Source: Chrysochromulina tobinii (Eukaryota). From it: a stretch of 42,032 nucleotides of DNA. Numbering within the stretch: position 1 is the first letter of the stretch; every line of letters begins with the position of its first letter. Below the pieces are notes generated by a model. The model saw only the letters and a list, made by a program, of their open reading frames with translations, was not told the origin of the DNA and ran no database searches. Below, one piece after another: positions 6,050-30,013 of the stretch. The stretch is from NCBI GenBank assembly GCA_001275005.1, contig JWZX01003315.1, forward strand, positions 1 through 42,032, written 5' to 3'. The translations under genes and the position numbers were made by a program.

Positions 6050-8065
6050 ATGCCCGTGACGGCGCCTGCGATGGCGACGACGACGCCGACGGCCACGGCC
6101 ACGGAGACTCACAACTTCGACGTGGTAGTGATAGGAGCAGGCTTTGTGGGCGTCTCAGTCGGCGCCGGCCTCGCAAGCCACGCAGGGGCATGCCGCGACA
6201 ACGACGGCCTGGACCACAGCCGCGTGCAAATCATCGAGCAGGGCCCAGAGTGCGGGGCATTCTGGCTCGGCGGGCACGAGGCGTTGTCGCTGCACAGTCC
6301 GCACCACCGCCTGCCGCACGACGGTGGGCTAGCGTACGACTACCCGATGTTCAAGACTAAGCACGAGGTGCGTGACTACATGAACCGGTATGCCCAGAAC
6401 AAGGGACTCGCACAATGCATGTCCTTTGGCGAGACGGTGCTGCGCATAAGCCACGAGCCCGAAGTCGACAAGGACCGGCCGTGGCGCGTCGCTACTGACA
6501 AGCGCGAACTCCGAGCGCGGCGCGTCGTCGTGGCCACGGGGCTCAACCGGCAGCCCCATATTCCCCACATCCCAGGCAGCGAGGAGCGTGCCGCACACGG
6601 CGCGCGCGCCTTGCGGCATTCGTGGAGCGTGTCGAGCTGCGACGAGTACAAAGGCGAGCGCGTGCTGCTCGTGGGGAGCGGCAACTCCGCGGCCGAACTC
6701 GCCGTGGCGCTGCACCATTCGGGCGCCAAGTCGATCGACATTCTGGTGGACGGGCCGCGCCACTTTGTGAGACGCAGCACGATGGGGCAGATCTTTCGTC
6801 TCTTTCCGTACTTGAGCCTGTCGACGGAGAGCATGGTGCACGATCTGCACCGGTGCACATTTGGCGAGCACACGGCGGATGCCAAGGTGGTCACCGCATG
6901 GGAGCGCTTCCAGGAGGGGCAAGATGAGTTCATAAGGCTTCTTTCCGTCGATCTCGGCCCCTTCGGTATCCAGCGGCCACCGAGCTGGCGGCACGCCGAG
7001 CAGCAGAGCGTCGCTCCTCGCATCCCCGTGTACGACGTGGACCAGCAGCGGTTGCCGCGCTCTGCCGGAGAGGGCGGCATCGTCGGCGGATCCGCAGCAG
7101 TTGGCTACGGCGTCATCGACCTCATTATGAGCGGTGCTGTCGGCATCAAGCGAGGACGCATCCAGCGCTTCACGAGCACCGGCGTCGTCATCGAGGAGGG
7201 GGCCTCGCGTCACGTGACAGCGCGGGCGGGAGCCACCAAAAGTTTGACAGCGGAGGCTGCAACGATGAAGGCGGCGACGGCGGAGGCTGCGACGGCGGAG
7301 GCTGCGACGGCGGAGGCTGCGACGGCGGAGGCTGCGACGACGGCCCCGCCGGGAGGGACGCACCACGCCTACGACGCAGTCATTCTCGCGACCGGCTTTC
7401 GCCACCGCATGGCCGACTTTCTGTGCGCTAAGGACGGGTTGCTTCACACGGCCGCCTCCTTTGGTGCCGCGGACGACGCCGAGGGTGCTCCGATCATCGA
7501 CAGCTGCTCGCGCTCGCGCGTGATCGACTCCATCTACTTTGTGGGCATGGACCAATTCAGGTCGACGGCCTCTCTCGATTGGCCTCCCTGATGACCTCCC
7601 TGATGACCTCTGATTGCCCCCTCTGATTGCCCCCCCCGCTTCAGGTCGACTCTCTCGATTGGCCTCCCTGATGACCTCCTTGATGACCTCTGATTGCCCC
7701 CTCTGATTGCCCCCCCCCGCTTCAGGTCGACTCTCTCGATTGGGCCCGTGCTCGGGTATCGTGGTTACGACGTCGGCGCGGCGATCGCGACCGATTTGTA
7801 CGGTCCGCCCACGAACCCGCTGCGTTTCCCCTCCCTACCGGCCGACGAGCAAGAAGGGAGCAACCCGATCCTGACGCCGAAGCACGCGCTCAAGGTCCTT
7901 GCGGCTGGGGTACTTGTGGGGATAGCTGGCACCCTCGTGATGGGGGCGCTCAAGCGGAAGCCGCGGCCGACAGCTCTGTCAGCCGCCCGAGGCCGCACGG
8001 TCCTCGAGAGCAGGCTAGCCCGCTTCAGCACCGAAGAGCGGCCTCTGACGAAGCCGAGGCCGTAG
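6050..8065 (+). CDS. Class B flavin-containing monooxygenase (FMO/YUCCA-like) with C-terminal membrane anchor; exons 6050-7560 and 7726-8065 (616 aa)
   Basis: FAD motif VIGAGFVG, VVATG, NADPH motif LVGSGNSA, ILATGF; splicing 7561-7725 joins DQFR-STLSIGPVLG in frame; hydrophobic ALKVLAAGVLVGIAGTLVMGAL followed by KRKPR. Confidence 0.85.
7561..7725 (+). other. Spliceosomal intron (165 bp) made of two tandem GT-AG units, 7561-7644 and 7645-7725
   Basis: GT...AG ends, in-frame stop at 7589-7591, removal restores the frame; each unit starts with a copy of the downstream exon start and ends ttcag. Confidence 0.85.
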
Positions 8066-9643: not shown

Positions 9644-11854
<2,211 letters not shown>

Positions 11855-11855
11855 C

Positions 11856-12035
11856 TACCGGTAACGCGTGTCCCGTGAACGTTAACACGACAGACGCGAC
11901 AACCGTGCTACGGCACTGTTACTGCCCGCTCAAAATACACACCGTGTGAACGTTAACACGACAGACACGACAACCGTGTGTGTCCCGTGTGTGTCCCGTG
12001 TGTGTCCCGGCTCCCCCCGGTGTCTTACCGGTAAC
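11856..12035. mobile_element. Small non-coding repeat element (MITE-like candidate) bounded by taccggtaac, with a 33-bp internal direct repeat and gtgtgtcccg tandem array
   Basis: taccggtaac at 11856-11865 and 12026-12035; gtgaacgttaacacgacagacRcgacaaccgtg at 11875-11907 and 11946-11978; 3' end recurs at about 35665-35720. Confidence 0.5.
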
Positions 12036-12501: not shown

Positions 12502-15500
12502 TTACGTCGGAGATTGCTCGACCTCGCGCTCGACTTCGTCAACTTCTTCATCGCTCGCGCCGGCCTCGATAAGGAGACGCATGCAATTCAGATGGCCGCG
12601 CAACGAGGCCAGCATGAGAGCCGTGTGGCCGCATGCATCGCGCGCGTCGAGCTCGACATCCTCGGTTCCGAGCAACACGCGCACGATGTCTAGATAGCCC
12701 TCGAAGCTCGCGATATGCAGCGCGTTCTGGTTGCGCCCGTCGCACACACCCACCTTGGCGAGTAGCGATCGGAGGCAATCAGCGGCAATCAGTGGACCAT
12801 TGGAGGCAATCAGAGACCATCAGAGACCATCAGAGACCATCAGAGGCAATCAGAGGTCATCAGAGGCCATCAGAGACCATCAGAGGCAATCAGAGACCAT
12901 CAGAGACCATCCGAGGACAATCAGTGGACCATCCTAAGCCTACCCGGGCGCCGCGCCACACAAGCGCCTGGACGGTCGCAAAGTGGCCCTGCTGGCAAGC
13001 GTGCAGCATGGCCCAGTCCTGCTTGCTCTGGCTGGAACAGCGCCAGATGGGTTGCATGCCACGCACACGCACGCGCTCGGACCCGGGCACGGGATCCTCG
13101 ACGGTACTCGGCCTGTGCACGACCACGTGCGAGAACTGCATCGAGACGACATCAGACGGGTTAGGGTGAGGGTTACCATAGGGTGAGGGTCGAGGCTACC
13201 TGCATCGAGACGACCTCGACGTAGGCGCGCAGGTCGAGTAAGATCGAGGGCAATCAAGGGCAATCAAGGGCAATCAAGGGCGATCAAGAGCAATCACGTT
13301 ACATCAATTATGGGCATTCAACGGAGATCGCACCTGCATCGAGACGACCTCCAGGTAGGCGCGCATGTCGAGGGCGTACGCGTACCATGTGCGCCAGCAC
13401 CGATGGAGCTGCCGGCTAAGTAGGTACCCGACGCCCTGCAAGAACAGCCTCGTCTTGCGGCGACTCAAGCTCCAATAGGCGATCCAGGAGAGCCATGCGC
13501 GTGCGAGATGCCGTCGGCCTATCAGGTGGATCAGCACGCGAGTCATACTGCCGAGCGACTTCCGAAGCTCCATGGCGGTCATGGTGGCGTGCCGCCAGTT
13601 ACCAAAGGCATGCGCGGCGCGCCGCATCGCTAAAAAGGTGACGACCTTGCTCACCTAATGAGGGAGGTCATCAGAGGTCATCAGTGGCCATCAGTAGCAA
13701 TCATTCATCAATTCGAGGGCGACCTCGCGCACCGTCCGCATCGACGCCTTGAGCGCCGACGCGGACTCGACCCAAGCGTTCCAGCCCTTGTGGAGCGGAC
13801 GATGACGGAAGTGGCTCATGCTACTCTGGATGGCTTTGAGCTTGAGCGTGCGCATCTCGTGGTACGCGATCCAAGCTGCGCAGCCACGCGCGAGGTGGCG
13901 GCTCGACAGCTGCCGGATGACGCGCGTCATCAGCGAGCGCAAGCGCTCACTTGCTCGCTTCGTCACGCACAGCGCCTTCCAGCTGCCGAACGCGCGCGCG
14001 CCATGCCGGTTCAAAAAGGAGCCCACGCCCATGCGGACGAGTTGCACCTGATGAGGGAGGTCATCAGAGGTCATCAGGGGCAATCCGCGGCAATCAATCA
14101 TCATCGCGCCCAAATCGCGCCCAGGCGGACGAGTTGCACCATGTGCTCGCGTCCCGAGATCAGATCCACCCAATTGACGAACCCCCTCGCCATATGGAGG
14201 CTCGTCAAGTGCATCAGGCTACGCGTCAACGACGCCCGCAACGACGCGCGCGCCGCGGCGCGCCGTTGGACGTGTGAACGCCAGCTGTGAAACGCCTTGG
14301 ACTGGCCGTGATGGAGTGTGAAGCGCAAGCCTTGGCGCATGAGCGCCGAGAAGGTGCGCGCATGGCCGCCGTACTGCGAGCTCTTGCCCGCCGCCTCGGC
14401 CCAGGAATTCCATCCCTTACCCAGATGCAGGCTGCGCAGCAGCGCGACGGCTCGCGTGACGTGGCGCACGTTGGCCTGACGAGCGTCGACGAAGGCCACC
14501 CAGCCCGCGACGGCACGTGCCTCGCGCTGTCTCCTCAGGACGCGCGCCGTGCGGCCGATGAAGGTGAGCAACTGAAGCTGCCTCGAGCATGCCTCGGCCC
14601 ACGTGCGCAGGGCGCGTGAGAGGCCCCGATGACGCTGGCTGCCCACGACACGTTGGAGTGAGTTGCCCACTTCGCTCTTTCGCCATTCGAACTCGATCCA
14701 GAGGGCCTTCCACACATTGAAGCCGCGCGCGAGGAGGTGGTCGGAGAAGACTCGAACGGCGTCCGTGAATAGAGCCGCGCCGCGCCGGCGCGCCAAGCGC
14801 ACCTTCGTTGCATGCAAGAGGGAGGCAATCAGCATGCAATGGGGAGGCACTCAGCATGCAATGAGGGAGGCACTCAGCATGCAATGAGGGAGGCACTCAG
14901 CATGCAATGAGGGAGGCACTCAGCATGCAATGAGCGCACCTTCGTTGCATGCGCCCACGACGCGAAGCTGCGAGAGAGCGAGTGAGAGGTGAACAAGGCG
15001 ATGCCCTTGCCGAGCAACTCGAGCGCCTCGGCGCGTGTCGCAACCAGCTCAGCCCACGCGTTCCAGCTGCGAGCCATCTGGCGGTGGACGAGATATGCGA
15101 GCATGCGCCGTAGCGACGCGAGCAGTGCTCCCTGCTCCTCGACGCGCTCATGCCACGCATGCCAGCCAAGAGCCATGAGCCGATCGGCCATGCGCCCAAT
15201 CGCGCGACGCGTGGCGATGAATTGGGCGTCGGAGGCGTAGTGGCGTTCGGCCCACGTCGACCAAGCGCGAGCGAGTGCGCTGGAGAGCAAGTGTGCGAGG
15301 GCTCTGCCGACGCGCGCACGCCCCGCCCCGCTGAGTGTGGAGGCCTCCATCCACGTGTTCCACGCGCACGAGAGGGTGCGTGCGCTCAGATGGCTGATCC
15401 CGTGCCTCATTACGTCAGCTGCGTGAGCGTGCGAACGCCAGGTATCGGCCCACGTGTGGTACCCACGTGTCAGGCCGCGCTTGGTGAAGCGGATGAGAAT

Positions 15501-21515: not shown

Positions 21516-22904
21516 TCAGTCGACTGATGCCCACCGTACGTCGTTCGTGGGGTGGGGTCGAGGCGGCGCATGTAGCTCTACTGAAGGAGGCAGTGCTGTC
21601 GCTCCGCTCTGATCGAAATCGATCAAAAGGCTGCCCTCGTCTACTGAAGGGGGGGGCAGTGCTGCCTCGCTGCTCTCGTCGAAATCGATCAAGAGGCTGC
21701 CCTCGATCTGTTGAAGCAGCTGCCTGCCCTCGAGCCGCCTCCTCGCCTCATGCACACTCAGCACGCCATCCACTGCGATCTCTTCAATGACCTCTGCCGC
21801 CGCAGGAGCATCCGAAGCGGATGATGCCGCCGCCTCCGTCTCTTTATCGGAGGCGGTCGTGCGCAAAGCCGCCTTCGCAGTCGCGATGACGAACTCTCGT
21901 CGTCCTAGCATCGTCACGTTCAATGCTGTAAGCGCGGCCTCGCCCACTGCCGTAATGCGACGTAATCAGTGGCGATCAGTCGCAATCAGTCGCAATCAGA
22001 CGCAATCAGACGCAATCAGACGCAATCAGTGGCAATCACCTGCCGTGCATGCGGCGTGCGAGCACTGCCCCGCCTCGTCGCCCCACTTGTGGCGCACCGC
22101 CGCCTCGACCACCGCGCCGCTCGTCTTACCGATCTCGACCGCGGAATGTTCGAGCTCCTGCCCAATCGTACAGATGGCGGAGATCGAAGCACCGCCGATC
22201 ACCTTAAGTGCCGCGACGGTCGGGGTATCCGGCTGGTTCGTAGCAAGATGCTGAGCTGCTGCCGTGCCGATGGCGCCGGCGACCGCAGCGACGCCCGAGC
22301 CCACCATGCCCGTGAAGCGCAGGGCGGCGTTGGCGACGGTCCGGGTCGTGTTGACTACCTGTATCACCTCGGGAGCCACGAAGGCCTCCCTCTCATCTGG
22401 CTGCACGTGGGTTCGGATCTCGGACAGAGCACACACGAGCCCGTCGGTGATGACGGCGGCGCCGCTTTTGATGCACCGAGCCGCCGCTTGGCCGCCAATC
22501 TGGATCGACATTGCCGCCTCCTCTGCCACCGCTGCCGCAAACAAGCCACCCTCATCGACATCGTTGGAGAGCTCTGACGGCGGAGGCAGACCCAGCATCA
22601 TCGCAAGCCGTTCGCGCGCAGGAAAATCAGAGTGCTCAAAGCGCAGCAATGTGATACCGCCGCCTTGCATGGAGCAGCCCAGCTCAATGCAAGGGACGGT
22701 CCAGAAGATGGCACAACCGTCATCGTCGAGGCTGCGGTCCCACACATCGACGGCTTGGTTGTCAGGTCCATCTGGTGATGGCACGTGTACCAGCCGTCTG
22801 CCTTTCACGATCAGCGATCCCGTGCATTGGACGAAGTGGGTGCCGTCGCCGAGGAGCGCTACGCGAGCGACCGCCTCAAGAATGTGGAATTCGGACGGCA
22901 CCAT
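21516..22904 (-). CDS. Senescence-domain (spartin/ERD7-like) protein; exons 22904-22040 and 21946-21516 (431 aa)
   Basis: Small-residue amphipathic helices and VRHKWGDEAGQ...AVGEAALTALNV, typical of the spartin C-terminal senescence domain; phase-1 intron removal restores the frame. Confidence 0.75.
21947..22039 (-). other. Intron (93 bp) of CTGATTGCGT/CTGATTGCGA 10-bp repeats
   Basis: GTGATT...ACGGCAG; in-frame stop at 22026; ends in a copy of the upstream exon end (CGCAT..ACGGCAG). Confidence 0.85.
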
Positions 22905-23383: not shown

Positions 23384-24421
23384 ATGGAGCTCGTAAAGTC
23401 GATGGAAGAACGGTGGGCTGCAGAAGAACGGTGGGCTCTCCGGCAGTTGGCACAGGATTCATCAGAAGAACTCGACGAGCTGCAGGAATTGCGGCTCCTG
23501 CTGCAAAGCGGACCGCCGTCTGATCGGCGCCCCATGGTGCAAAGCGGACTGCCGTCTGACGAGCGGCGCAACCTGCGCAGCATCAGGGAGGACGAGATGA
23601 CAGACAAATATGCCAGTGCACACGCTTTCTTCCCAGTTAGCGGAGTTACCTCCTGGCGGTCCTCGGCAAGCAGCGGCGCGACGAGCGACGGCGCGACGCG
23701 CGGCGCGACGCGCGGCGCGACGAGTGGCGCGACGAGTGGCGCGACGAGTGAAGGCCACCGCCCTCTCCATCTTCTCCGCCCTGTAGCCCAGAAGAAGCGT
23801 CATCCGGCGGCCACCGCGCACGGCATGAAGGCTCAGCCGCGGGTAGATGATGTACAGTCGCCGTCGCCATCACCGTCCCCATCACCGTCGCCATCAGCAC
23901 CGCCGGCACTGCCGGGTGCTGCCGGGCAGATCCCCCCTGGTGCCGGCAAGCGCGCCGTCACGAGCGCCTCAACAGAGCGCCGCACGCACGCTTCCGATCC
24001 ACTCTGCGCCCGAGCAGGTGTGACGAAGCCGAGGGCAGGTGTGGCGGCCCAGTCGGCTGATGATGCACTCTGGGCCCCTGGTGCGGAGCCATCGCCCACT
24101 TCGATCATGGAGTTGATGGCGAAAGTGGCAGAGGCGAAGGCGGGGAAGGCGCCTCGACCTGCAGCCCGAGCGGACCCAGCGCCTCGAACGAGCCATGAGA
24201 AAGAGTCCCTCATGAACGTCACTGGAACATCCAGCGCCACCCAGCACAACGACCCAAAGAAGGTGACCGAGGCGCTCAAGGGTATCTCGGTGCGAGCGGC
24301 CCCCAACCAGCCGTCCCTGCCATCGCCACCGCCACCGGCAATCTCGCCGCCACCAGATTCGTGGGCCCACCAGAAAGGGAACACGCCACGTGGCTACTTC
24401 ATGCGCCTGCGCAAGATGTAA
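23384..24421 (+). CDS. Hypothetical low-complexity protein (coiled-coil start, GATS/GATR repeats, SP repeats)
   Basis: 345-aa ATG-initiated ORF after an AT-rich intergenic region; no recognisable domain; 3' end uncertain. Confidence 0.5.
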   Translation: MELVKSMEERWAAEERWALRQLAQDSSEELDELQELRLLLQSGPPSDRRPMVQSGLPSDERRNLRSIREDEMTDKYASAHAFFPVSGVTSWRSSASSGATSDGATRGATRGATSGATSGATSEGHRPLHLLRPVAQKKRHPAATAHGMKAQPRVDDVQSPSPSPSPSPSPSAPPALPGAAGQIPPGAGKRAVTSASTERRTHASDPLCARAGVTKPRAGVAAQSADDALWAPGAEPSPTSIMELMAKVAEAKAGKAPRPAARADPAPRTSHEKESLMNVTGTSSATQHNDPKKVTEALKGISVRAAPNQPSLPSPPPPAISPPPDSWAHQKGNTPRGYFMRLRKM

Positions 24422-24778
24422 GCTGCTTGCTGCAGCGACGCGAGCAAATGCGCCCACATGGAGCAACAGAGTATGTCGTGTGGCCCTACACGCCACGCGC
24501 AGGTGGGAGTGATCGCAGCGGAGCGCGTTGGCCTTACACGCCACACCGCACGCGGAGGGAGCAGCAGAGCGCGCTCGAGACGGCGCTCGAGAGAGCAGCG
24601 CCACTGGATAGGCAGATGCAGCGTAACTGCCGACTGGATAGGCTCGGGTCGGCTGGTCGCGGCGCGGGCTCGTGAACATCCCGCGCCGCGCCGGGCGCGG
24701 TTGCCGCAGCGGTTCCTCGAGCCGTCACACAGTCACCGCGGAGTACGAGTGAATACAAGCGCGTGAACCAAAAGTGTT

Positions 24779-25393
24779 TCACAGGCGCCGCGCGATATGC
24801 ACCGACGCGAGCAATAAGACGACCACGGTCACACACATAAGGCACAATCCGCAGTACATGTATTGCCACAAGGATTGCAGGGCCACATAGCGCTCATATT
24901 CCATCCTGGTCACCTCCGCCGTTTGCACCTTTTGCCGATTGCCGAGCGGATGACTGCGCGCAGCACGTTTGACGCCCTGCACGAGGGCATTGTAACCGTT
25001 CCATCCGCCCTCCACCCCGCTCGACCGAACGTCCTGCTCCAACTCGAAGCGCAACCTATCACTCCGAATTCGGTCGCGCTGCATCTGCTCGAGCCTTTCT
25101 ATCTTCTGCAGCAGCGCAGAAGTTTGAGCCTGGGCAGCGCCCGCAAGGAAACCCTCCAAGTCGCCGCGCGTGCGCGCGAATTCGGCGGCCAAAAGTCTCT
25201 TCTGCTCGACCGCTGCCGCGCCGGGCATGGTCGTCAACAGCTCCTCGGTCTCCTCGTTGTAGAAGAGAAGCTGGCCGGTTGGGCCGCAGCGGCGGTCCAA
25301 GACGGCGTGCCAGCCCTCTGGAAGCGGGCCTGGCACCGTTAGGTTGCACAGCTCGCCCGTTTGCAAGTCGAACACCGGTTCGGAGGTGGCCAT
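24779..25393 (-). CDS. WW-like domain protein with coiled coil and C-terminal TM anchor
   Basis: PLPEGWHAVLD...TGQLLFYNEET...P (second Trp absent); C-terminal YCGLCLMCVTVVVLLLASVHIARRL. Confidence 0.7.
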   Translation of the reverse strand: MATSEPVFDLQTGELCNLTVPGPLPEGWHAVLDRRCGPTGQLLFYNEETEELLTTMPGAAAVEQKRLLAAEFARTRGDLEGFLAGAAQAQTSALLQKIERLEQMQRDRIRSDRLRFELEQDVRSSGVEGGWNGYNALVQGVKRAARSHPLGNRQKVQTAEVTRMEYERYVALQSLWQYMYCGLCLMCVTVVVLLLASVHIARRL

Positions 25394-25558
25394 CCTCGGT
25401 TTTGCAGTGGTGTCGAATTTACAAACATCTTGACTGTGAACGGGTATTGTGTGCTATGAATTAGTTTCGAGTTGAAAAGGTCCGAGTTGGGCGTACGCGT
25501 CAGCAGTGACCTCCCTCCGCTCACTCTCACACACAAAACCACGTCGTGACGACCTCGA

Positions 25559-28357
25559 CTACACCGTAACACGATGAGAGACAGACGAGGGCCGCAACGC
25601 CACCTGCTCCTCAAACACGTAGCACGGCCTTCGGGTGAGAGGCACTCTCGGAGTATGGTGTGAAAGCCGCGGCGCGTGGTGCCCTGGGGAGCCCAGCTTG
25701 ATCCTTGGTCTCCGGCCTATCGGCGGGCCTATCGGCGGGCCCACCGGCGGGCCCACCGGCGAGTGGAGCGGGTGCCCCATCTTAGGGGCCTGCCCCATCG
25801 TCCACACCTCTGCGTCCTCTTGTGGGGTGGGCGCTGCCGGCGTGGATGGCGTCCCTGATTCCATGCTGATTGCATTCCTCATCAGGTGGGCTCCCTCACG
25901 GCGCCGCCGCACGATCGAAAGCAGATCTTCTCGCTCTTGGAGCCAGCTGCTATTGGCCTTCTGCCACAGCTGCCATCTGGCTTCGAGCTCCGTGTGCGCC
26001 CTGTTGCCTTGCCCCAATCTGCTCACCAATCTGCTAGGATGCGACTCGGCGCCCGGTATGGCGCTCGACTTGGCGCTCTGCTCGGCGCTCTTCTCGGCGA
26101 TTCTCGAGAACGCCGAGTTCGCGAACGGGCCGGCGGGCGTGCGAGCTTGTGGATCAGGCCACCGACGCACCGAGATCGGGTCGGAACCAAACAAGGTGAA
26201 GCCATCGGAACAAGGTGGAGCGCGATTCCATCGTCTCGCTAGCGGAGACCCATCGGCTCCAAATAAGACGTCATTATCGTCGCCGAGGGCATGCGACTCC
26301 AAAGACTGCCGTGGCCGCACTCGACCCACTCCTCTGATTGCATGCTGATTGGGTTCCTCATCAGGTGGGCTCCCTGGCCGCACTCGACCCACTCCCGGCT
26401 GCCTCGCTGATGGGCGCGCGGACGACGCGCGTACTGGCTTGAACGGCACGTCGAGCCTCGTGGACAACACCATCTGTGCCACTGTCTGTGCCACTGTCTG
26501 TGCCACTGTTTGTGCCACTGTCATCTCTTTGCCGACCTCTTTCACTGTGTTTGCCAATGCCCTCTCTTCGCCGACCCCTTCAACTGTGTGTGCCACTGTC
26601 TTCGCTTCGCCGACCTCTTCGCGGGGAATGCGATTTCTCCGACTGCGCGGCGTCAGCTTCTCGTCAACCTTCGCGACGACCAAGTCGGGCGGGCTGATGA
26701 ACACGTCATCGCCTCCGGCAGACTCAGGTGCGGGCGTGACGGCTACTCCCTCAATGCGCGGCCACTCCCTCAAAGCCTTCTTGAGCTTCGCTACCACGCC
26801 CGCCTCCTTGAGCTTTGCTGCCGCTCGTGCTGACGACGTGACCCGCGCCTCGATGGCCGCCTTCACCACTCTGGCAACGGCTTCCTCCTTGGCACGTCTG
26901 GCTGCAGCTAGCTCTTCCTGCTTGGCTGCCTCTTCCTTCTCGATCTTGTCCGCAGAGCCCTTTTGCGCCTTTGCCCACGCCGCTTCTTGCGCCACGCGTG
27001 AAGCGTGCAGTTCCTTGAGTGCCTTTGCAATCGCTGCTCGCTTCGTAATCAAGCGATTGCGATTGCGTTGCGCTGCCTTTGCCGCCGCCGCCCGTTGCTC
27101 CTTTTCGGGTAAGAAGGAGGTGGCGGCCAAGAAGGAGAAGAAGGAGAAGCCTTCTCCTTCTCCTTCTTTGCTCGGCTTTCTTGCCCGCCTCCGCTCAGCC
27201 TCCACAGCTTCCTGCCTCCGCTCAGCCTCCACAGCTGCCTGCCTCCGCTCAGCCTTCACAGCTGCCTGCCTCCGCTCAGCCTCCACAGCTGCCTGCCTCC
27301 GCTCAGCCTCCACAGCTGCCTGCCTCCGCTCAGCCTTCACAGCTGCCTGCCTCCGCTCAGCCTCCACAGCTCCCTCAATCATCTCCGCCATCTCCGCCGC
27401 GGCCGCCCGTTGCTCCTTTTCGAACAACGAAAAGGAGACGCCTTTTTCTTGTTTGCTCGGCTTTCTTGCCCGCCTCTGCTCAGCCTCCACAGCTTCCTCA
27501 GTCTTCTCCGCCATCTCCACTGTCGTCACCGCCATCGCCACCGCCTTCTTCGCCACCGGCGCCGCCGTCGCGATCCGCCGGCGGCGCCCCAATCGCCGTC
27601 CCCCTGACTGCGGCTGCCCCCCTGACTGCGGCTGTCCCCCTGTCCCCCTGTCCCCCTGTCCCCCTGTCCCCAATCGCTGTCCCCCTTGGATGACTGCGGC
27701 TGCCTTGCCAGAGCGCATCTGCTCGAGGATGGCTCCGCGCGCATAGCGCAGCGATGCGAGAGCCGTCAATGTGACGCTGATCGAGGCGACGCGCTTGCCA
27801 TGACGATCGAGGACGTCAATGGCCTGGTTTGTCGGCTCGTGCTCACGCTTCAGCAGGTCCTTGAGGTTCACGTGCGCCAGACCGAGCTCCTGCTCATCGT
27901 CGATCGCCGCCGCCATGACGGCGTCGACGGGAGTGCTCAGCCCGGGGGCTGTTACATGTATCACCTCGTCTGGGTGCTCGGCGTTCAGGCCGGCCTTGAG
28001 CACAAAGTACACGTCCGAGTCTTGCTCCTCGACCGAATTGAGCGCCTCGCACATAGGCTCCCACAGCGGCGTCCCCGGCGAAAGGGGCAGTAGCTCGTGC
28101 ACGTCGAGCAACACCGGGTCGAGCGAGGCGGGGCGAAGCCGGCTTGAGCGGAGCCGTACCTCGAGCTCGTGGGCTCGACCAAACGGGTCGATGGATATCC
28201 ACACGTGCTGCTTCGTCTGCTTCAGCTCTCGCAGCAACGGCGGCTCAAGCTGCAGCGTGTGCACCGAAAGCGTGATCGGCCCGGTCGGTGTTCCTTCCCT
28301 GTCGCCCAACTGTTTGGAAGCCTGCTCGGGCTCGTGCTCTGGAGTCAAGCCAACCAT
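25559..28357 (-). CDS. 932-aa protein with N-terminal C2 domain (RPGRIP1 C-terminal-type), IQ-like motif, coiled coil and disordered tail
   Basis: ITLSVHTLQL...VWISID...VYFVL...ELGLAHVNLKDLL...IDVLD...VASISVTLTALASL C2 strand pattern; AAAVIQ; AERRQAAVE repeats. Confidence 0.6.
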   Translation of the reverse strand: MVGLTPEHEPEQASKQLGDREGTPTGPITLSVHTLQLEPPLLRELKQTKQHVWISIDPFGRAHELEVRLRSSRLRPASLDPVLLDVHELLPLSPGTPLWEPMCEALNSVEEQDSDVYFVLKAGLNAEHPDEVIHVTAPGLSTPVDAVMAAAIDDEQELGLAHVNLKDLLKREHEPTNQAIDVLDRHGKRVASISVTLTALASLRYARGAILEQMRSGKAAAVIQGGQRLGTGGQGDRGTGGQPQSGGQPQSGGRRLGRRRRIATAAPVAKKAVAMAVTTVEMAEKTEEAVEAEQRRARKPSKQEKGVSFSLFEKEQRAAAAEMAEMIEGAVEAERRQAAVKAERRQAAVEAERRQAAVEAERRQAAVKAERRQAAVEAERRQEAVEAERRRARKPSKEGEGEGFSFFSFLAATSFLPEKEQRAAAAKAAQRNRNRLITKRAAIAKALKELHASRVAQEAAWAKAQKGSADKIEKEEAAKQEELAAARRAKEEAVARVVKAAIEARVTSSARAAAKLKEAGVVAKLKKALREWPRIEGVAVTPAPESAGGDDVFISPPDLVVAKVDEKLTPRSRRNRIPREEVGEAKTVAHTVEGVGEERALANTVKEVGKEMTVAQTVAQTVAQTVAQMVLSTRLDVPFKPVRASSARPSARQPGVGRVRPGSPPDEEPNQHAIRGVGRVRPRQSLESHALGDDNDVLFGADGSPLARRWNRAPPCSDGFTLFGSDPISVRRWPDPQARTPAGPFANSAFSRIAEKSAEQSAKSSAIPGAESHPSRLVSRLGQGNRAHTELEARWQLWQKANSSWLQEREDLLSIVRRRREGAHLMRNAISMESGTPSTPAAPTPQEDAEVWTMGQAPKMGHPLHSPVGPPVGPPIGPPIGRRPRIKLGSPGHHAPRLSHHTPRVPLTRRPCYVFEEQVALRPSSVSHRVTV
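27190..27370 (-). repeat. 27-bp coding minisatellite (about 6 copies, AERRQAAV[E/K])
   Basis: ccgctcagcctYcacagctgcctgcct tandem array. Confidence 0.9.
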
Positions 28358-28754
28358 TCGGCCAGCAGTTTCTGTTCGATCTGATCGTCAATTCGGACGC
28401 GGTTGTTCAAGGTCATGAAGGAAATGCATGCGGAAACCAACACTCAAGATTCCAAATTAGTCACATCGAGAACACAACAGTACACGGCCTTCGTACGCAT
28501 GCTTCGCTGGCATAACTGATGTCATCTCTCACGCGCTCAGAAGGCGTTGACGATCGTCACGGCTGGTCATGTCGCACAGACGAGCAGAAGAGAGAAGTGC
28601 TACCTTCACCACTACACGGTGCGCGCGCGGACCCGTCATCTCATCTGTGCGCAGGGTGAAACTGCTGCCCAAGGACCTTGCCTATAGAGTCATCTGGGGT
28701 ATCATCTGGAGAATGGTTGACTGGATGACTGCCGTCCGATGATGGTGTCCAGAG

Positions 28755-30013
28755 TCATGCTGGGGACCACTCCGGGACGGCCCCTTCACCTGGAGCATGG
28801 TTGACTGCCGTCCGATGACGTCGCCCGTGCGGGGATGGGCTGGACCCAAATACCGGTAAGTCACGGATGGGCTCAACCGGGGTCGTGACAGAGTCATCTG
28901 GGGCAGGGCTGACCGCCGTCCGATTACGTCCCGCGAAGCGGCTTGCGGGGGCTTGCCTGCTTGGAGAGAACGCGGAGGTAGAGCTTTTGATGGCAGAGAG
29001 GGCGGAGGTGGAGGCGGAGCGTAAGGGGGCTAATACAATTGAGGCGGATCGTCTGATGGTCTGCAAAGTTTCCGAGGCTGAGTGGCTGAGTCTGACGAGA
29101 GCCGTGCCCGTCTTCTCTCGCTCCGCCTCCGCCTTCTCTGCCGCCACACGCTCCGCCTCCGCCTTCTCTGCCGCCAGACGCTCCGCCTCCGCCTCCGCTC
29201 TTGCCGCTGCCGCTCGCTTCGCCTCAAGCTTTTCAAATTGGCCGCGACGTACCCGCCTGCCGCGCGCGGCCGCCTGGAGCCGGACGGTGGAGGCTCGGCG
29301 GCTGACCCAGCGAGTTGCTGCCCGCTGCACGATATTGATCGCCTTTCCAGAGCGCATCTGCTCGACGATGGCGGCAAGCCGCCGCCTACGGATGGCCTCG
29401 TCAAGCGCCCCGTCGGCGACGGGATTGGGATCGTGCGCGCGCAGATTGGCTAGCACTGCCGTCGCGTAGCTTGCGAGAGTCTCATTGTTTGACGAGAGGA
29501 GCGGCTCGAGGTCGGTCATGAGGCCTCGGCTTCGAAGAGTTTGGCAAAGAGCGTCCGGGTCCAGGGACGTGGCATTCTGGAGCACCGCACACACATACAG
29601 TTGAATGCCCCGCTCGTCTCGCCGGAGCGCACCCTGTAGCGAATCGAGACCATCATGCTCAATGAAAGCTGCGAGCGACAGATCAGCCTCTGGGTCGAAG
29701 ACGTCCGTCGAACAGGTTGCCGACGAGTGCCAACGCGCCCTGGGGGGAGCTCATCACTCTTTGTAGGATCCCCATCATATGTGTTGATGCAGGCGATTAG
29801 CGCGCGTATGCCGCCGCTCTCACGCACTGCCGCAGCGAGGGCGGCAGCATCAGCGCCGTACGAGTTGTCAGCCACACTGTTGAGCTGATCGAGTGCATCG
29901 CTTCGCGTGTCATCGCTGATGGAGTGAACGAGACTGGCGACGAGGACATTGGCTCGAGCGCGGGTCGCCTCAGCCACCCGCTCCGCGCGAGCGCTAAACG
30001 GCGTCGTGGCCAT
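28755..30013 (-). pseudogene. ARM-repeat/IQ-motif protein gene interrupted by apparent frameshifts near 29742-29747 and 29710 (pseudogene or assembly error)
   Basis: ORF 30013 frame gives AVRESGGIRALIACI; a +1 shift gives QGALALVGNLF; a second +1 shift gives TDVFDPEA...QLYVCAVLQNAT in frame with ORF 28755..29594 (YATAVLANL; IQ motifs VQRAATRW, LQAAARGRRVR). Confidence 0.6.

What the first reader, a model, noticed from the sequence alone, without database searches (positions are those of the whole stretch)
26312..26395. Antisense, unspliced family member retained as a 63-bp in-frame coding insertion
Seen: exact 21-bp direct repeat tggccgcactcgacccactcc (26312-26332 and 26375-26395) around tctgattgcatgctgattgggttcctcatcaggtgggctccc. 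The filler matches the intron-family 3' end (..cctcatcag) but lies antisense to the host gene, has no GT-AG on the coding strand matching the 63-bp period, and is stop-free (GVGRVRP twice). Inference: the process inserts in both orientations, and antisense events survive only when in frame. That favours an insertion mechanism over splicing-driven sequence drift.
Basis: partly seen in the sequence, partly recalled or inferred. Interest (0 to 1): 0.75.

Follow-up and report, generated by a model that had tools for sequence, protein, structure and literature searches.

The report
Backwards mobile intron kept as protein
A 42-base copy of a repeated intron sequence, flanked by a 21-base duplication, sits backwards inside a gene of a freshwater haptophyte alga, stays in RNA contigs and keeps the reading frame open, so it is likely translated as 21 extra amino acids; it likely marks a DNA-level insertion process that makes introns in one orientation and protein insertions in the other.

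Summary
An exact 21-bp direct repeat (26312-26332, 26375-26395) brackets a 42-bp filler, with 0 chance matches in 100 shuffles.

The filler belongs to an abundant intron family ending in ...CCTCATCAG. A capped metagenome scan found at least 129 stretches, and the window holds 9 sense-oriented clusters.

Here the element lies antisense to a 942-codon minus-strand ORF in a Chrysochromulina parva-like alga. That ORF is coding:
- All 4 strain indels inside it are multiples of 3.
- Two relatives at about 85% amino-acid identity keep it open.

No GT/GC-AG pair fits the 63-bp period on either strand. Two polyA metatranscriptome contigs, both from one study, cross the segment without a gap.

Four other metagenome loci hold antisense copies in coding ORFs. 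All four have periods that are multiples of 3 (48... 51, 60, 75, 78 excluded the ambiguous 48) and read in an open frame, against 11 of 35 sense introns (Fisher p=0.017). One of them has empty sites in a paralogous unit and in an ortholog.

This is a new variant of introner-type elements. An earlier scan note found the family on another piece of this genome.

The parts
26375..26395 (-). Direct repeat, first copy on the coding (minus) strand. It encodes GVGRVRP, residues 665-671 of the ORF.
   Evidence: Exact 21-mer with 2 matches in the window and 0 in 100 shuffles. Translation.
26333..26374 (+). The 42-bp filler. It is an intron-family element oriented on the + strand (CTGATTG units, ..TTCCTCATCAG, then gtgggctccc). 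On the minus strand it reads GSPPDEEPNQHAIR.
   Evidence: k-mer matches to family introns at 14045-14056 and 14826-14840. The same core occurs in at least 129 metagenome stretches. Retained without a gap in RNA contigs X12 record 4 and X13 record 12.
26312..26332 (-). Direct repeat, second copy on the coding strand. It encodes GVGRVRP, residues 686-692.
25853..25895 (+). Sister antisense copy in the same ORF, read in the other open frame (EGAHLMRNAISMES). It has no clear flanking repeat, only a 7-nt GGTGGGC at 58-nt spacing seen by eye.
   Evidence: The peptide is kept in relatives P0002 and P0003. It shares with the 26333-26374 copy the rare TTCC variant (6 of 148 elsewhere) plus 11 further bases.
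25562..28387 (-). Host ORF of 942 codons, stop to stop (P0001). It has a C2/RPGR1_C-like N-terminal lead, a coiled-coil repeat region and a lineage-specific C-terminal region.
   Evidence: No Pfam family was found.
33224..33324 (-). Sense family member: an intron in the tubulin-tyrosine-ligase gene, with a 25-bp direct repeat and a 76-bp period.
   Evidence: TTL Pfam hits are split over two ORFs. Excising one period joins the ORFs, 2109 to 3189 nt.
14796..14952 (-). Sense family member: an intron with a 20-bp direct repeat and a 137-bp period, containing the same ATTGCATGCTGATTG unit.
   Evidence: Excision extends the ORF from 477 to at least 3192 nt.
14033..14140 (-). Sense family member: an intron with a 16-bp direct repeat and a 92-bp period. 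The repeat supplies the GT and the filler ends ..CCTCATCA(G).
   Evidence: Excision extends the ORF from 525 to 1065 nt.

Best explanation
A 42-bp member of a repeated intron family lies, flanked by a 21-bp duplication of the gene's own sequence, in reverse orientation inside a minus-strand coding ORF, where it is kept in RNA contigs and is likely translated as 21 extra residues.

Inferred mechanism: a DNA-level copying or insertion process places family sequence into genes in either orientation and duplicates 14-61 bp of the target. The family sequence has a fixed 3' end ..CCTCATCAG and a variable 5' start.

In sense orientation the duplicated target usually begins with GT. The element supplies CTGAT branch-like units, a pyrimidine stretch and the CAG acceptor, so the unit is spliced out exactly.

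In antisense orientation no fitting splice sites exist, so the unit stays in the mRNA. It is predicted to survive selection only if three conditions hold:
- the period is a multiple of 3;
- it falls in one of the two stop-free antisense frames (..PDEGGNQHAIR.. or ..LMREAISMQSE..);
- the protein tolerates the extra residues.

This copy met these conditions in a lineage-specific, repeat-rich C-terminal region. It predates the split from a relative with about 85% amino-acid identity.
For: SHOWN
- Repeat and filler: the exact repeat and the filler are in the sequence.
- Family membership: 15-mer and 12-mer matches to window introns. The core pattern occurs in at least 129 metagenome stretches.
- Sense members are introns: excising one period joins ORFs in the TTL gene (2109 to 3189 nt), at 14796 (477 to at least 3192 nt) and at 14033 (525 to 1065 nt). 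GT follows the CAG in 31 of 47 clean loci and GC in 5.
- The coding strand is minus: the codon model prefers the ORF frame in 3 of 4 sub-regions and ties in the fourth. Indels against strain contig L021 inside the ORF are 12, 81, 18 and 3 nt; outside it they are 3, 4, 5, 3 and 1 nt. Relatives P0002 (965 aa) and P0003 keep one open frame through the segment.
- Retention: 27 of 28 residues are identical in P0002, against flanks of 29/40 and 31/40. RNA contig X12 record 4 (25887-27079) and X13 record 12 (25853-27077) have 0 gaps, and no listed joint removes the segment. Strain haplotypes L021 and L117 keep it.
- No exact-excision splice pair: 0 of 22 rotations on each strand.
- Other antisense copies: L027 (51 nt x3, in a 1078-codon ORF), L096 (78), L099 (75, directly after a KH domain, E=4.7e-11) and L123 (60) are all 3n, frame-consistent and open. 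Among sense loci, 11 of 35 are 3n (Fisher p=0.017; 0.0066 with the target).
- Empty sites for L027: a paralogous unit in the same gene and ortholog P0006.

INFERRED
- The insertion polarity of this particular copy.
- Orientation-neutral insertion.
- Translation of the segment.
Against: - No empty site exists for this copy. The only relatives carry it, and an exhaustive profile-free search of 1.84 billion representatives found only P0003.
- The RNA evidence is unstranded Logan contigs from two runs of one study. There is no spliced-intron control from the same runs, and contigs cannot show that a spliced minor form is absent.
- The public gene model P0004 splices out about 26155-26597, which includes the segment.
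- Several in-frame GT..AG pairs of 57-129 nt exist by chance on the minus strand, for example 26332-26388.
- The codon signal is a tie just downstream of the insert, in 25896-26311.
- The synonymous bias of strain substitutions (21 of 36) is nearly matched by the overlapping + frame (19 of 36), so it does not decide the strand.
- The 10 bases gtgggctccc between the CAG and the second repeat do not fit the usual junction, where the repeat starts within 3 bases of the CAG.
- The antisense sample is small. One automatic antisense call (L051, 74 nt) had to be reclassified by eye as a sense intron. Looser-flank candidates L033 (107), L038 (167) and L060 (77) are not 3n, but have inconsistent frames or poor coding scores.
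Confidence: 0.75

Rival explanations
1. The filler was not delivered by a family-wide mobile element. It was copied locally during break repair or replication template switching from the sister copy 480 bp away, together with 11 bases of that copy's flank. The 21-bp repeat is a by-product of that repair. This changes the mechanism, not the outcome (an antisense, in-frame, retained segment).
For: - Copies at 25853-25895 and 26333-26374 share 22 identical bases, TTCCTCATCAGGTGGGCTCCCT. These include a variant (TTCC) seen in only 6 of 148 other element ends, plus 11 bases beyond the family's CAG end.
- Family repeats have very variable length (14-61 nt in simple, non-array loci; median 29 over all 41 loci counted) and the filler has no fixed 5' end. 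That is unlike a transposase with a fixed stagger.
Against: - L099, in an unrelated KH-domain gene, also has CAG followed by gtgggcccc before its repeat. The extension may therefore belong to a subfamily rather than to a local flank.
- CAGGTGGG is common after family ends.
- The direction of copying cannot be told.
Confidence: 0.3
2. The segment lies in a real spliceosomal intron of the minus-strand gene and is removed from mature mRNA. The intron could be the ~440-nt intron of the public model (about 26155-26597) or a short in-frame GT..AG intron. The RNA contigs would then be pre-mRNA or an intron-retaining isoform.
For: - The public model P0004 joins ..EEVGKVKT to ARTPAGP.., skipping the region.
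- In-frame GT..AG candidates exist, for example 26332-26388 at 57 nt.
- Contigs cannot exclude a spliced form.
Against: - The region stays open and alignable as protein in P0002 and P0003, with only in-frame gaps.
- Strain indels in the ORF are all 3n.
- Of the 19 strain substitutions listed in 26396-26577, 14 are synonymous in the ORF frame. The overlapping + frame cannot be excluded by this count.
- Two RNA contigs at depth 15.7 and 19.8 are colinear, and no joint removes the region.
- P0004 also fuses the gene to the next ORF downstream, which suggests an unreliable ab initio model.
Confidence: 0.1
3. The element is in sense orientation for a + strand transcript, for example the 465-codon ORF 26349-27743 or a non-coding antisense RNA. 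It is, or was, an ordinary intron there, with GT at 26310 and CAG at 26364.
For: - A GT at 26310-26311 and the family acceptor at 26362-26364 give a 55-nt candidate (read).
- The + frame shares wobble positions with the minus ORF, so it also shows 19 of 36 synonymous strain substitutions.
Against: - The codon model favours the minus frame over the whole ORF, -3.93 against -4.07 per codon.
- The + ORF starts inside the element and reads as CATV/SASTAACLR-type repeats.
- Relatives' called proteins are the minus-strand product.
- The RNA contigs show no joint at 26364.
- A 7-nt strain insertion at 25500 lies just past the minus-strand stop codon, which fits a 3' UTR there.
Confidence: 0.04
4. The segment is a chance tandem duplication in a repeat-rich gene, and the filler only resembles the intron family by accident.
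For: The host ORF is full of in-frame tandem repeats with periods of 12, 27 and 39 nt. Other [repeat-filler-repeat] structures with non-family fillers exist in the window.
Against: - The filler carries the two-part family core found in at least 129 metagenome stretches.
- It shares a 15-mer and a 12-mer with window introns.
- The 21-mer TTCCTCATCAGGTGGGCTCCC has 0 chance matches in 100 shuffles.
- The same architecture recurs at four other antisense loci.
Confidence: 0.02

Closest known systems
Introners / introner-like elements (Micromonas, Aureococcus, Symbiodinium, Polarella, Chrysochromulina sp. MAG). Sources: passages of PMC9860276 and of bioRxiv 10.1101/2020.10.14.339549.
   Same: - Many near-identical short introns sit in unrelated genes.
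[quoted passage not shown]
- Excision restores the coding sequence exactly.
- Some described classes act in either orientation.
- One described Aureococcus family adds 12 bp (4 residues) to the transcript.
   Different: - Described target duplications are 3-9 bp, and 4 bp in the Chrysochromulina sp. example. Here the repeats are 14-61 bp and variable.
- No terminal inverted repeats of 6 nt or more were seen here.
- The 5' end of the filler is variable.
- The copy studied here is not an intron at all. It is an antisense copy kept as coding sequence. I found no text on that in the passages read or in six literature look-ups.
Repeat-flanked intron family noted earlier in this scan on another piece of the same genome (e1-2577349).
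   Same: The same organism and the same footprint: an intron bracketed by a 15-bp copy of the exon that supplies the GT donor, with more than 100 relatives in lake metagenomes.
   Different: That note concerns sense copies that act as introns. This finding is the antisense, unspliced, in-frame counterpart. It adds the 3n test and empty-site evidence.
Intron gain by tandem duplication of an exon segment containing AGGT (Rogers model; recalled, not read here).
   Same: A direct repeat of exon sequence supplies the splice sites, so that removing one period restores the message. At 14796-14952 both AG and GT lie inside the repeat.
   Different: Here the repeats are separated by foreign family sequence, so a plain duplication does not explain the filler.
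In-frame transposable-element insertions or exonisation in coding regions, for example MITE-derived coding segments (general knowledge, recalled).
   Same: A short mobile sequence is tolerated inside a protein when its length is 3n and it is stop-free.
   Different: The inserted sequence here belongs to a family whose normal fate is to be an intron. Orientation decides between intron and peptide.

Membership tests
Introner / introner-like element family | Many highly similar intron sequences in unrelated genes of one genome | tested here: met
The window holds 9 sense clusters in at least 4 genes.
Introner / introner-like element family | Target-site duplication flanking each copy | tested here: met
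   Locus-specific direct repeats flank 131 of 206 element ends. They are 14-61 nt in simple loci, with a median of 29 over 41 non-array loci. This is far longer and more variable than the 3-9 bp in the literature passages.
Introner / introner-like element family | Terminal inverted repeats | tested here: inconclusive
   Only the short CTGAT...ATCAG symmetry of the units is visible. No dedicated terminal-repeat search was run, and the filler 5' end is variable.
Introner / introner-like element family | Insertion creates a spliced intron by recruiting a splice site from the duplication | tested here: met
   This holds for sense members. Excising one period joins ORFs, and GT or GC follows the CAG in 36 of 47 loci. 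Splicing itself was not seen in RNA here.
Introner / introner-like element family | This particular copy functions as an intron | tested here: not met
   No GT/GC-AG pair fits any of 22 rotations on either strand. RNA contigs keep the segment. The ORF is open and conserved through it.
Introner / introner-like element family | Mobilising machinery (an autonomous partner or transposase) | not tested
   No whole genome is held for this window, and no autonomous element was sought.
In-frame coding insertion derived from a mobile sequence | Length is a multiple of 3, stop-free, and inside a verified coding exon | tested here: met
   The 63 nt are in phase 0. The coding status of the ORF is supported.
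In-frame coding insertion derived from a mobile sequence | An empty site in an ortholog or paralog shows that the state is derived | tested here: not met
   For this copy the only relatives, P0002 and P0003, carry it. The feature is met for the sibling locus L027 and partly for L099.
In-frame coding insertion derived from a mobile sequence | The segment is present in mature mRNA or protein | tested here: inconclusive
   Contigs from polyA RNA libraries are colinear. They are unstranded, come from one study and lack a spliced control. No proteomic data were available.

The most novel reading that the evidence does not exclude
The family is not a classical cut-and-paste introner. It is the product of a template-copying insertion process, either target-primed or break-repair synthesis. 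That process starts at the fixed ..CCTCATCAG end of intron-like sequence, runs a variable distance and duplicates 14-61 bp of the target. It acts in either orientation. One process therefore seeds introns in one orientation and, in the other, sprinkles recurring PDEGGNQHAIR / LMREAISMQSE peptide modules through the proteome of Chrysochromulina. Some of these modules are then kept under selection for long periods.
Probability: 0.3. Interest if true: 0.8.

Novelty: new variant of a known kind. Interest (0 to 1): 0.6.

Why it matters
The origin of new spliceosomal introns is a long-standing question. The main debate is between DNA-level insertion and RNA-level processes such as reverse splicing or gradual drift.

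Copies of an intron family that sit backwards in exons, carry the same target duplication and pass a 3n, open-frame filter could not have been placed by reverse splicing into the host mRNA. They therefore give an internal control for the insertion mechanism.

They also show that the same process adds short peptides to proteins. They flag gene models that wrongly splice out such segments. And they offer a simple genome-wide test in any haptophyte assembly, namely the period mod 3 of antisense versus sense copies.

Tried and rejected
- Whole-genome search: not possible, because no genome is held for this window.
The second call stopped short of those places, so RNA cover of the 5' third of the gene was not examined.
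- Uncovered stretch: no run covered 24726-25451. I draw nothing from it.
- Listed joints: the two joints, 25536>26069 and 25891>26337, are non-canonical. One has a side of 21, the other has 21 foreign letters between its ends. They look like other family copies or repeats, and neither removes the segment.
- Strand from substitutions: the synonymous bias of strain substitutions fails as a strand test, because the + frame shares wobble positions, 21 versus 19 of 36.
- Pre-insertion ortholog: the word-based search found only P0002-P0004. The exhaustive search of 1.84 billion representatives with the C-terminal 382 residues found only P0003.
- Pfam on the host ORF: no family.
- Automatic repeat finder, first version: it mistook family motifs of neighbouring introns for flanking repeats and missed the target's 63-bp period. 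It was rewritten.
- Automatic strand calls are noisy. L051 and L119 proved to be sense on inspection. L005 and L089 read stops in the antisense frame. L053, L025 and L054, and by eye L004, L031, L041, L063 and L075, are chance pattern hits without family units.
- Ambiguous antisense candidates left out of the count: L098 (87 nt array), L071 (72), L110 (48), L085 (57), L033 (107), L038 (167) and L060 (77).
- Extra conservation of the insert: it is in the top 35 of 351 windows only, so this is not decisive.
- Earlier-findings look-ups by sequence and by long word lists: nothing returned.
- One literature query failed on a formatting limit.
Full report
**1. Observation**

The window reads tggccgcactcgacccactcc at 26312-26332 and again at 26375-26395. 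Between them lies tctgattgcatgctgattgggttcctcatcaggtgggctccc.

The 21-mer has exactly two matches, even with 3 mismatches allowed. None of 100 dinucleotide-preserving shuffles gave a match.

A second copy of the filler lies at 25853-25895. The 21-mer TTCCTCATCAGGTGGGCTCCC is shared exactly by both copies and also has 0 chance matches.

**2. What surrounds it**

The window is eukaryotic, with 60-66% G+C. No whole genome is held for it.

A protein search named the closest public model as a Chrysochromulina (JGI Chrpa1) gene at 98% identity. I therefore call the organism Chrysochromulina parva-like.

The segment lies in a minus-strand frame that is open for 942 codons, 25562-28387 (P0001). In that frame:
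- the repeat is GVGRVRP (residues 665-671 and 686-692);
- the filler is GSPPDEEPNQHAIR;
- the copy at 25853-25895 is read one frame over, as EGAHLMRNAISMES.

Pfam finds no family in this ORF. A language-model look-up suggests a C2 / RPGR1_C-like N-terminal domain, with a score of 0.94 and 180 shared features. That is a lead only.

**3. The family**

The window holds introns made of 10-23-nt units containing CTGAT / ATCAG, each bracketed by a direct repeat of exon sequence.

On the coding strand the structure is [repeat, usually starting (G)GT] [units ... CCTCATCA(G)] [repeat]. The repeat therefore gives the donor and the element gives the acceptor.

Removing one period joins the flanking ORFs:
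- tubulin-tyrosine-ligase gene, 2109 to 3189 nt (period 76);
- 14796-14952, 477 to at least 3192 nt (period 137);
- 14033-14140, 525 to 1065 nt (period 92).

The filler of the finding shares a 15-mer with the 14796 intron and a 12-mer with the 14033 intron, both on the opposite strand.

In the window, 9 clusters of family units are in sense orientation to their genes. Only the two copies in this ORF are antisense.

My scan confirms that independently.

**4. Is the host frame really coding, and on which strand?**

- *Codon model.* I trained a codon model on ten Pfam-supported ORFs of the window. On its own training data it finds the right strand in 88% of 150-nt windows and 96% of 300-nt windows. 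It prefers the minus ORF frame in 25562-25850, 26396-27100, 27700-28387 and over the whole ORF. It ties with a + frame in 25896-26311.
- *Strain indels.* A lake metagenome contig of a related strain (L021, about 98% identical) differs from the window by four indels inside the ORF, of 12, 81, 18 and 3 nt. Outside the ORF the indels are 3, 4, 5, 3 and 1 nt.
- *Relatives.* Two proteins called on independent ENA assemblies, P0002 (965 aa) and P0003 (662 aa), align to the ORF end to end. P0002 is 85% identical over 835 aligned columns, with only in-frame gaps.
- *Substitutions.* In an RNA contig of another strain, 23 of 36 listed substitutions fall on third codon positions and 21 are synonymous. 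The overlapping + frame shares those positions (19 synonymous), so this does not decide the strand.

Taken together the minus strand is the coding strand, and the element is antisense to it.

**5. Is the segment spliced?**

None of the 22 possible 63-nt exact-excision windows starts GT or GC and ends AG, on either strand.

Four RNA runs were laid on 24000-27600. Two polyA metatranscriptome runs from one study each have a long contig colinear with the DNA across the segment:
- X12 record 4: 25887-27079, 37 other letters, 0 gaps;
- X13 record 12: 25853-27077, 38 other letters, 0 gaps.

No other letter is listed inside 26239-26395. The only two joints listed are non-canonical and do not remove the segment.

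The limits of this evidence are:
- contigs are unstranded;
- they cannot show that a minor spliced form is absent;
- the runs are from one study;
- I had no call left to show a spliced sense intron in the same runs.

The public model P0004 removes about 26155-26597 as an intron. That conflicts with the colinear contigs, the in-frame indels and the conserved open frame of the relatives. The same model also runs on into the next ORF downstream. I regard it as an annotation error, but cannot exclude an alternative isoform.

**6. Age and conservation**

The only relatives found carry them..RQLGVGRVRH GSPPDEEPNQHAIR GVGRVRP RQ...

In P0002, 27 of 28 residues are identical, against 29/40 and 31/40 in the flanks. 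Of 351 windows of 28 residues in the C-terminal region, 35 are equally conserved.

An exhaustive search of 1.84 billion representatives with the C-terminal 382 residues found only P0003. The region is therefore lineage-specific and no empty site is available.

Every strain-level sequence examined keeps the segment: the window, L021, L117 and the RNA-contig strain.

The relatives also keep the peptide of the sister copy (EGTHLMRNAISMQS). Next to it they have a further 25-residue repeat-flanked in-frame insertion, AISMQS...AISMQS.

**7. Do other antisense copies obey the same rule?**

From the metagenome loci I located flanking repeats for 131 of 206 element ends and merged them into 102 clusters. 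I kept the 45 clusters with at least 90 nt of motif-free flank on both sides, and scored the strand with the codon model.

*Sense copies (log-likelihood difference at least 6).* There are 35 loci. Their periods are 11 / 10 / 14 for 0 / 1 / 2 mod 3.

*Antisense copies (at most -6).* There are 5 loci:
- L099, period 75;
- L027, period 51, three tandem units inside a 1078-codon ORF;
- L123, period 60;
- L096, period 78;
- L051, period 74.

The first four have the same best frame on both sides and are read without a stop. On inspection, L051 is a sense intron of a gene whose + frame reads a plausible protein.

The strain copy of the target (L021, period 63) scores -5.0.

Statistics:
- 4 of 4 antisense versus 11 of 35 sense: Fisher one-sided p=0.017;
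- with the target included, 5 of 5: p=0.0066;
- if L051 is kept as antisense: p=0.056.

Antisense translation of the element gives ..PDEGGNQHAIR.. in one frame and ..LMREAISMQSE.. in another. The third frame has two stops (T**GRQSAC). All accepted cases use one of the open frames.

The L099 ORF has a KH domain (PF00013, E=4.7e-11) directly before the insert. Its relatives P0008 and P0009 have a single VPPVVAGMDHLT and no element, although their tails then diverge.

For L027 the state is clearly derived:
- A paralogous unit in the same ORF lacks the three units, both at protein level and at DNA level.
- The ortholog P0006 has one unit, and it is empty.
- The filled unit is 117 nt longer, counted by hand from the alignment.

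Ambiguous candidates are listed under Tried and rejected.

**8. Mechanism**

*Shown.*
- The copies have locus-specific direct repeats of very variable length: 14-61 nt in simple loci, median 29.
- They have a fixed 3' end.
- They have no fixed 5' start.
- In sense loci the repeat begins within 3 bases of the CAG and starts GT in 31, and GC in 5, of 47 loci.
- Antisense copies exist with the same footprint.

*Inferred.* Insertion happens in DNA and in either orientation. Orientation then decides the fate:
- A sense copy is spliced out, because the target duplication supplies the donor. Its length is free.
- An antisense copy has no matching sites and stays in the message. Only 3n, open-frame copies in tolerant protein regions persist.

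Reverse splicing into the host mRNA would give neither antisense copies nor target duplications.

*How the copy is made is open.* The long, variable repeats and the variable 5' end are unlike the 3-9-bp duplications of described introners (passages of PMC9860276; bioRxiv 10.1101/2020.10.14.339549). They would fit target-primed or break-repair copying.

The two copies in this ORF share a rare variant (TTCC, 6 of 148 other ends) and 11 bases beyond the CAG. This suggests that one was templated from the other together with some flank. However, L099 has a similar CAGgtgggcccc, so a subfamily with a longer end is equally possible.

**9. Comparison with the literature**

What I read:
- *PMC9860276, passages.* Introners have 3-9-bp duplications. 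They recruit one or both splice sites from the duplication. A Chrysochromulina sp. MAG family has 4-bp duplications. An Aureococcus family adds 12 bp to the transcript.
- *The 2020 bioRxiv preprint, passages.* Polarella classes make introns in one or both orientations.

I found no statement on antisense copies retained as in-frame coding sequence in:
- those passages;
- PMC11282704 or PMC12130899 (term look-ups with no hits);
- three full-text searches.

Huff et al. 2016 was not available to me and is only recalled. Supplements were not consulted.

**10. Verdict**

The main gaps are the missing empty site for this copy, RNA evidence that is limited to contigs, and the small antisense sample.

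This is a new variant of a known kind, introner-type intron gain. It has an informative twist: the backwards copies act as a natural control for the insertion mechanism, and as a source of short protein insertions.

Noticed in passing
window 24782-28387 (minus strand): The public gene model (P0004, JGI Chrpa1 22929) skips about 27100-27720 and 26155-26597, and then runs on into the next ORF (24782-25453, a WW-like LPEGWHAV.. protein). RNA contigs and relatives' ORFs contradict at least the 26155-26597 'intron'.
   Followed up: partly
relatives P0002/P0003, aligned to window ~25850-25870: Next to the sister copy the relatives carry a further 25-residue in-frame insertion flanked by a repeated AISMQS (..NAISMQSEDREILLWAASTPAACNQDAISMQSG..). 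It is absent from the window.
   Followed up: no
window 27182-27375 and 27595-27671: There are in-frame tandem repeats inside the host ORF: 27 nt x7 encoding AERRQAAVE-type units, 18 nt x2.4 and CTGTCCCC x5. Strain L021 lacks 81 nt (three units) and 18 nt there.
   Followed up: partly
window 11875-11966, 21613-21705, 28726-28818, 37673-37759: These are other [direct repeat - filler - direct repeat] structures (repeats of 21, 27, 17 and 23 nt) whose fillers do not look like the CTGAT family. They may be other families or older events of the same process.
   Followed up: no
window 7570-7743: An 80-nt unit [family filler + 33-nt exon repeat] is present 2.2 times at the 3' end of the FMO-like ORF. 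This is a tandem array of a sense member. Similar arrays of 2-7 units occur in loci L068, L005, L027 and L098.
   Followed up: partly
window 9647-11854 (minus strand): One 736-codon open frame joins an esterase domain (PF00756, E=5e-47) to a zinc alcohol-dehydrogenase (ADH_N + ADH_zinc_N). It may be a fused formaldehyde-detoxification pair, or two genes read through.
   Followed up: no
window 32805-32972: A 42-nt unit is repeated 4 times (93% matches) within the ORF region downstream of the TTL domain. The period is 3n. Whether it is coding or intronic was not examined.
   Followed up: no
window 41160-41382: A near-perfect 114-nt tandem duplication (2.0 copies, 98%) lies in a + strand ORF at the window's end. 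The period is 3n.
   Followed up: no
locus L027:669-3902: The 1078-codon ORF contains an internal duplication of a ~65-residue unit (GDAVPQAIEWTRRLGSNG...PSFVGC, aligned). Ortholog P0006 has this unit once, and only the second unit carries the antisense elements.
   Followed up: yes
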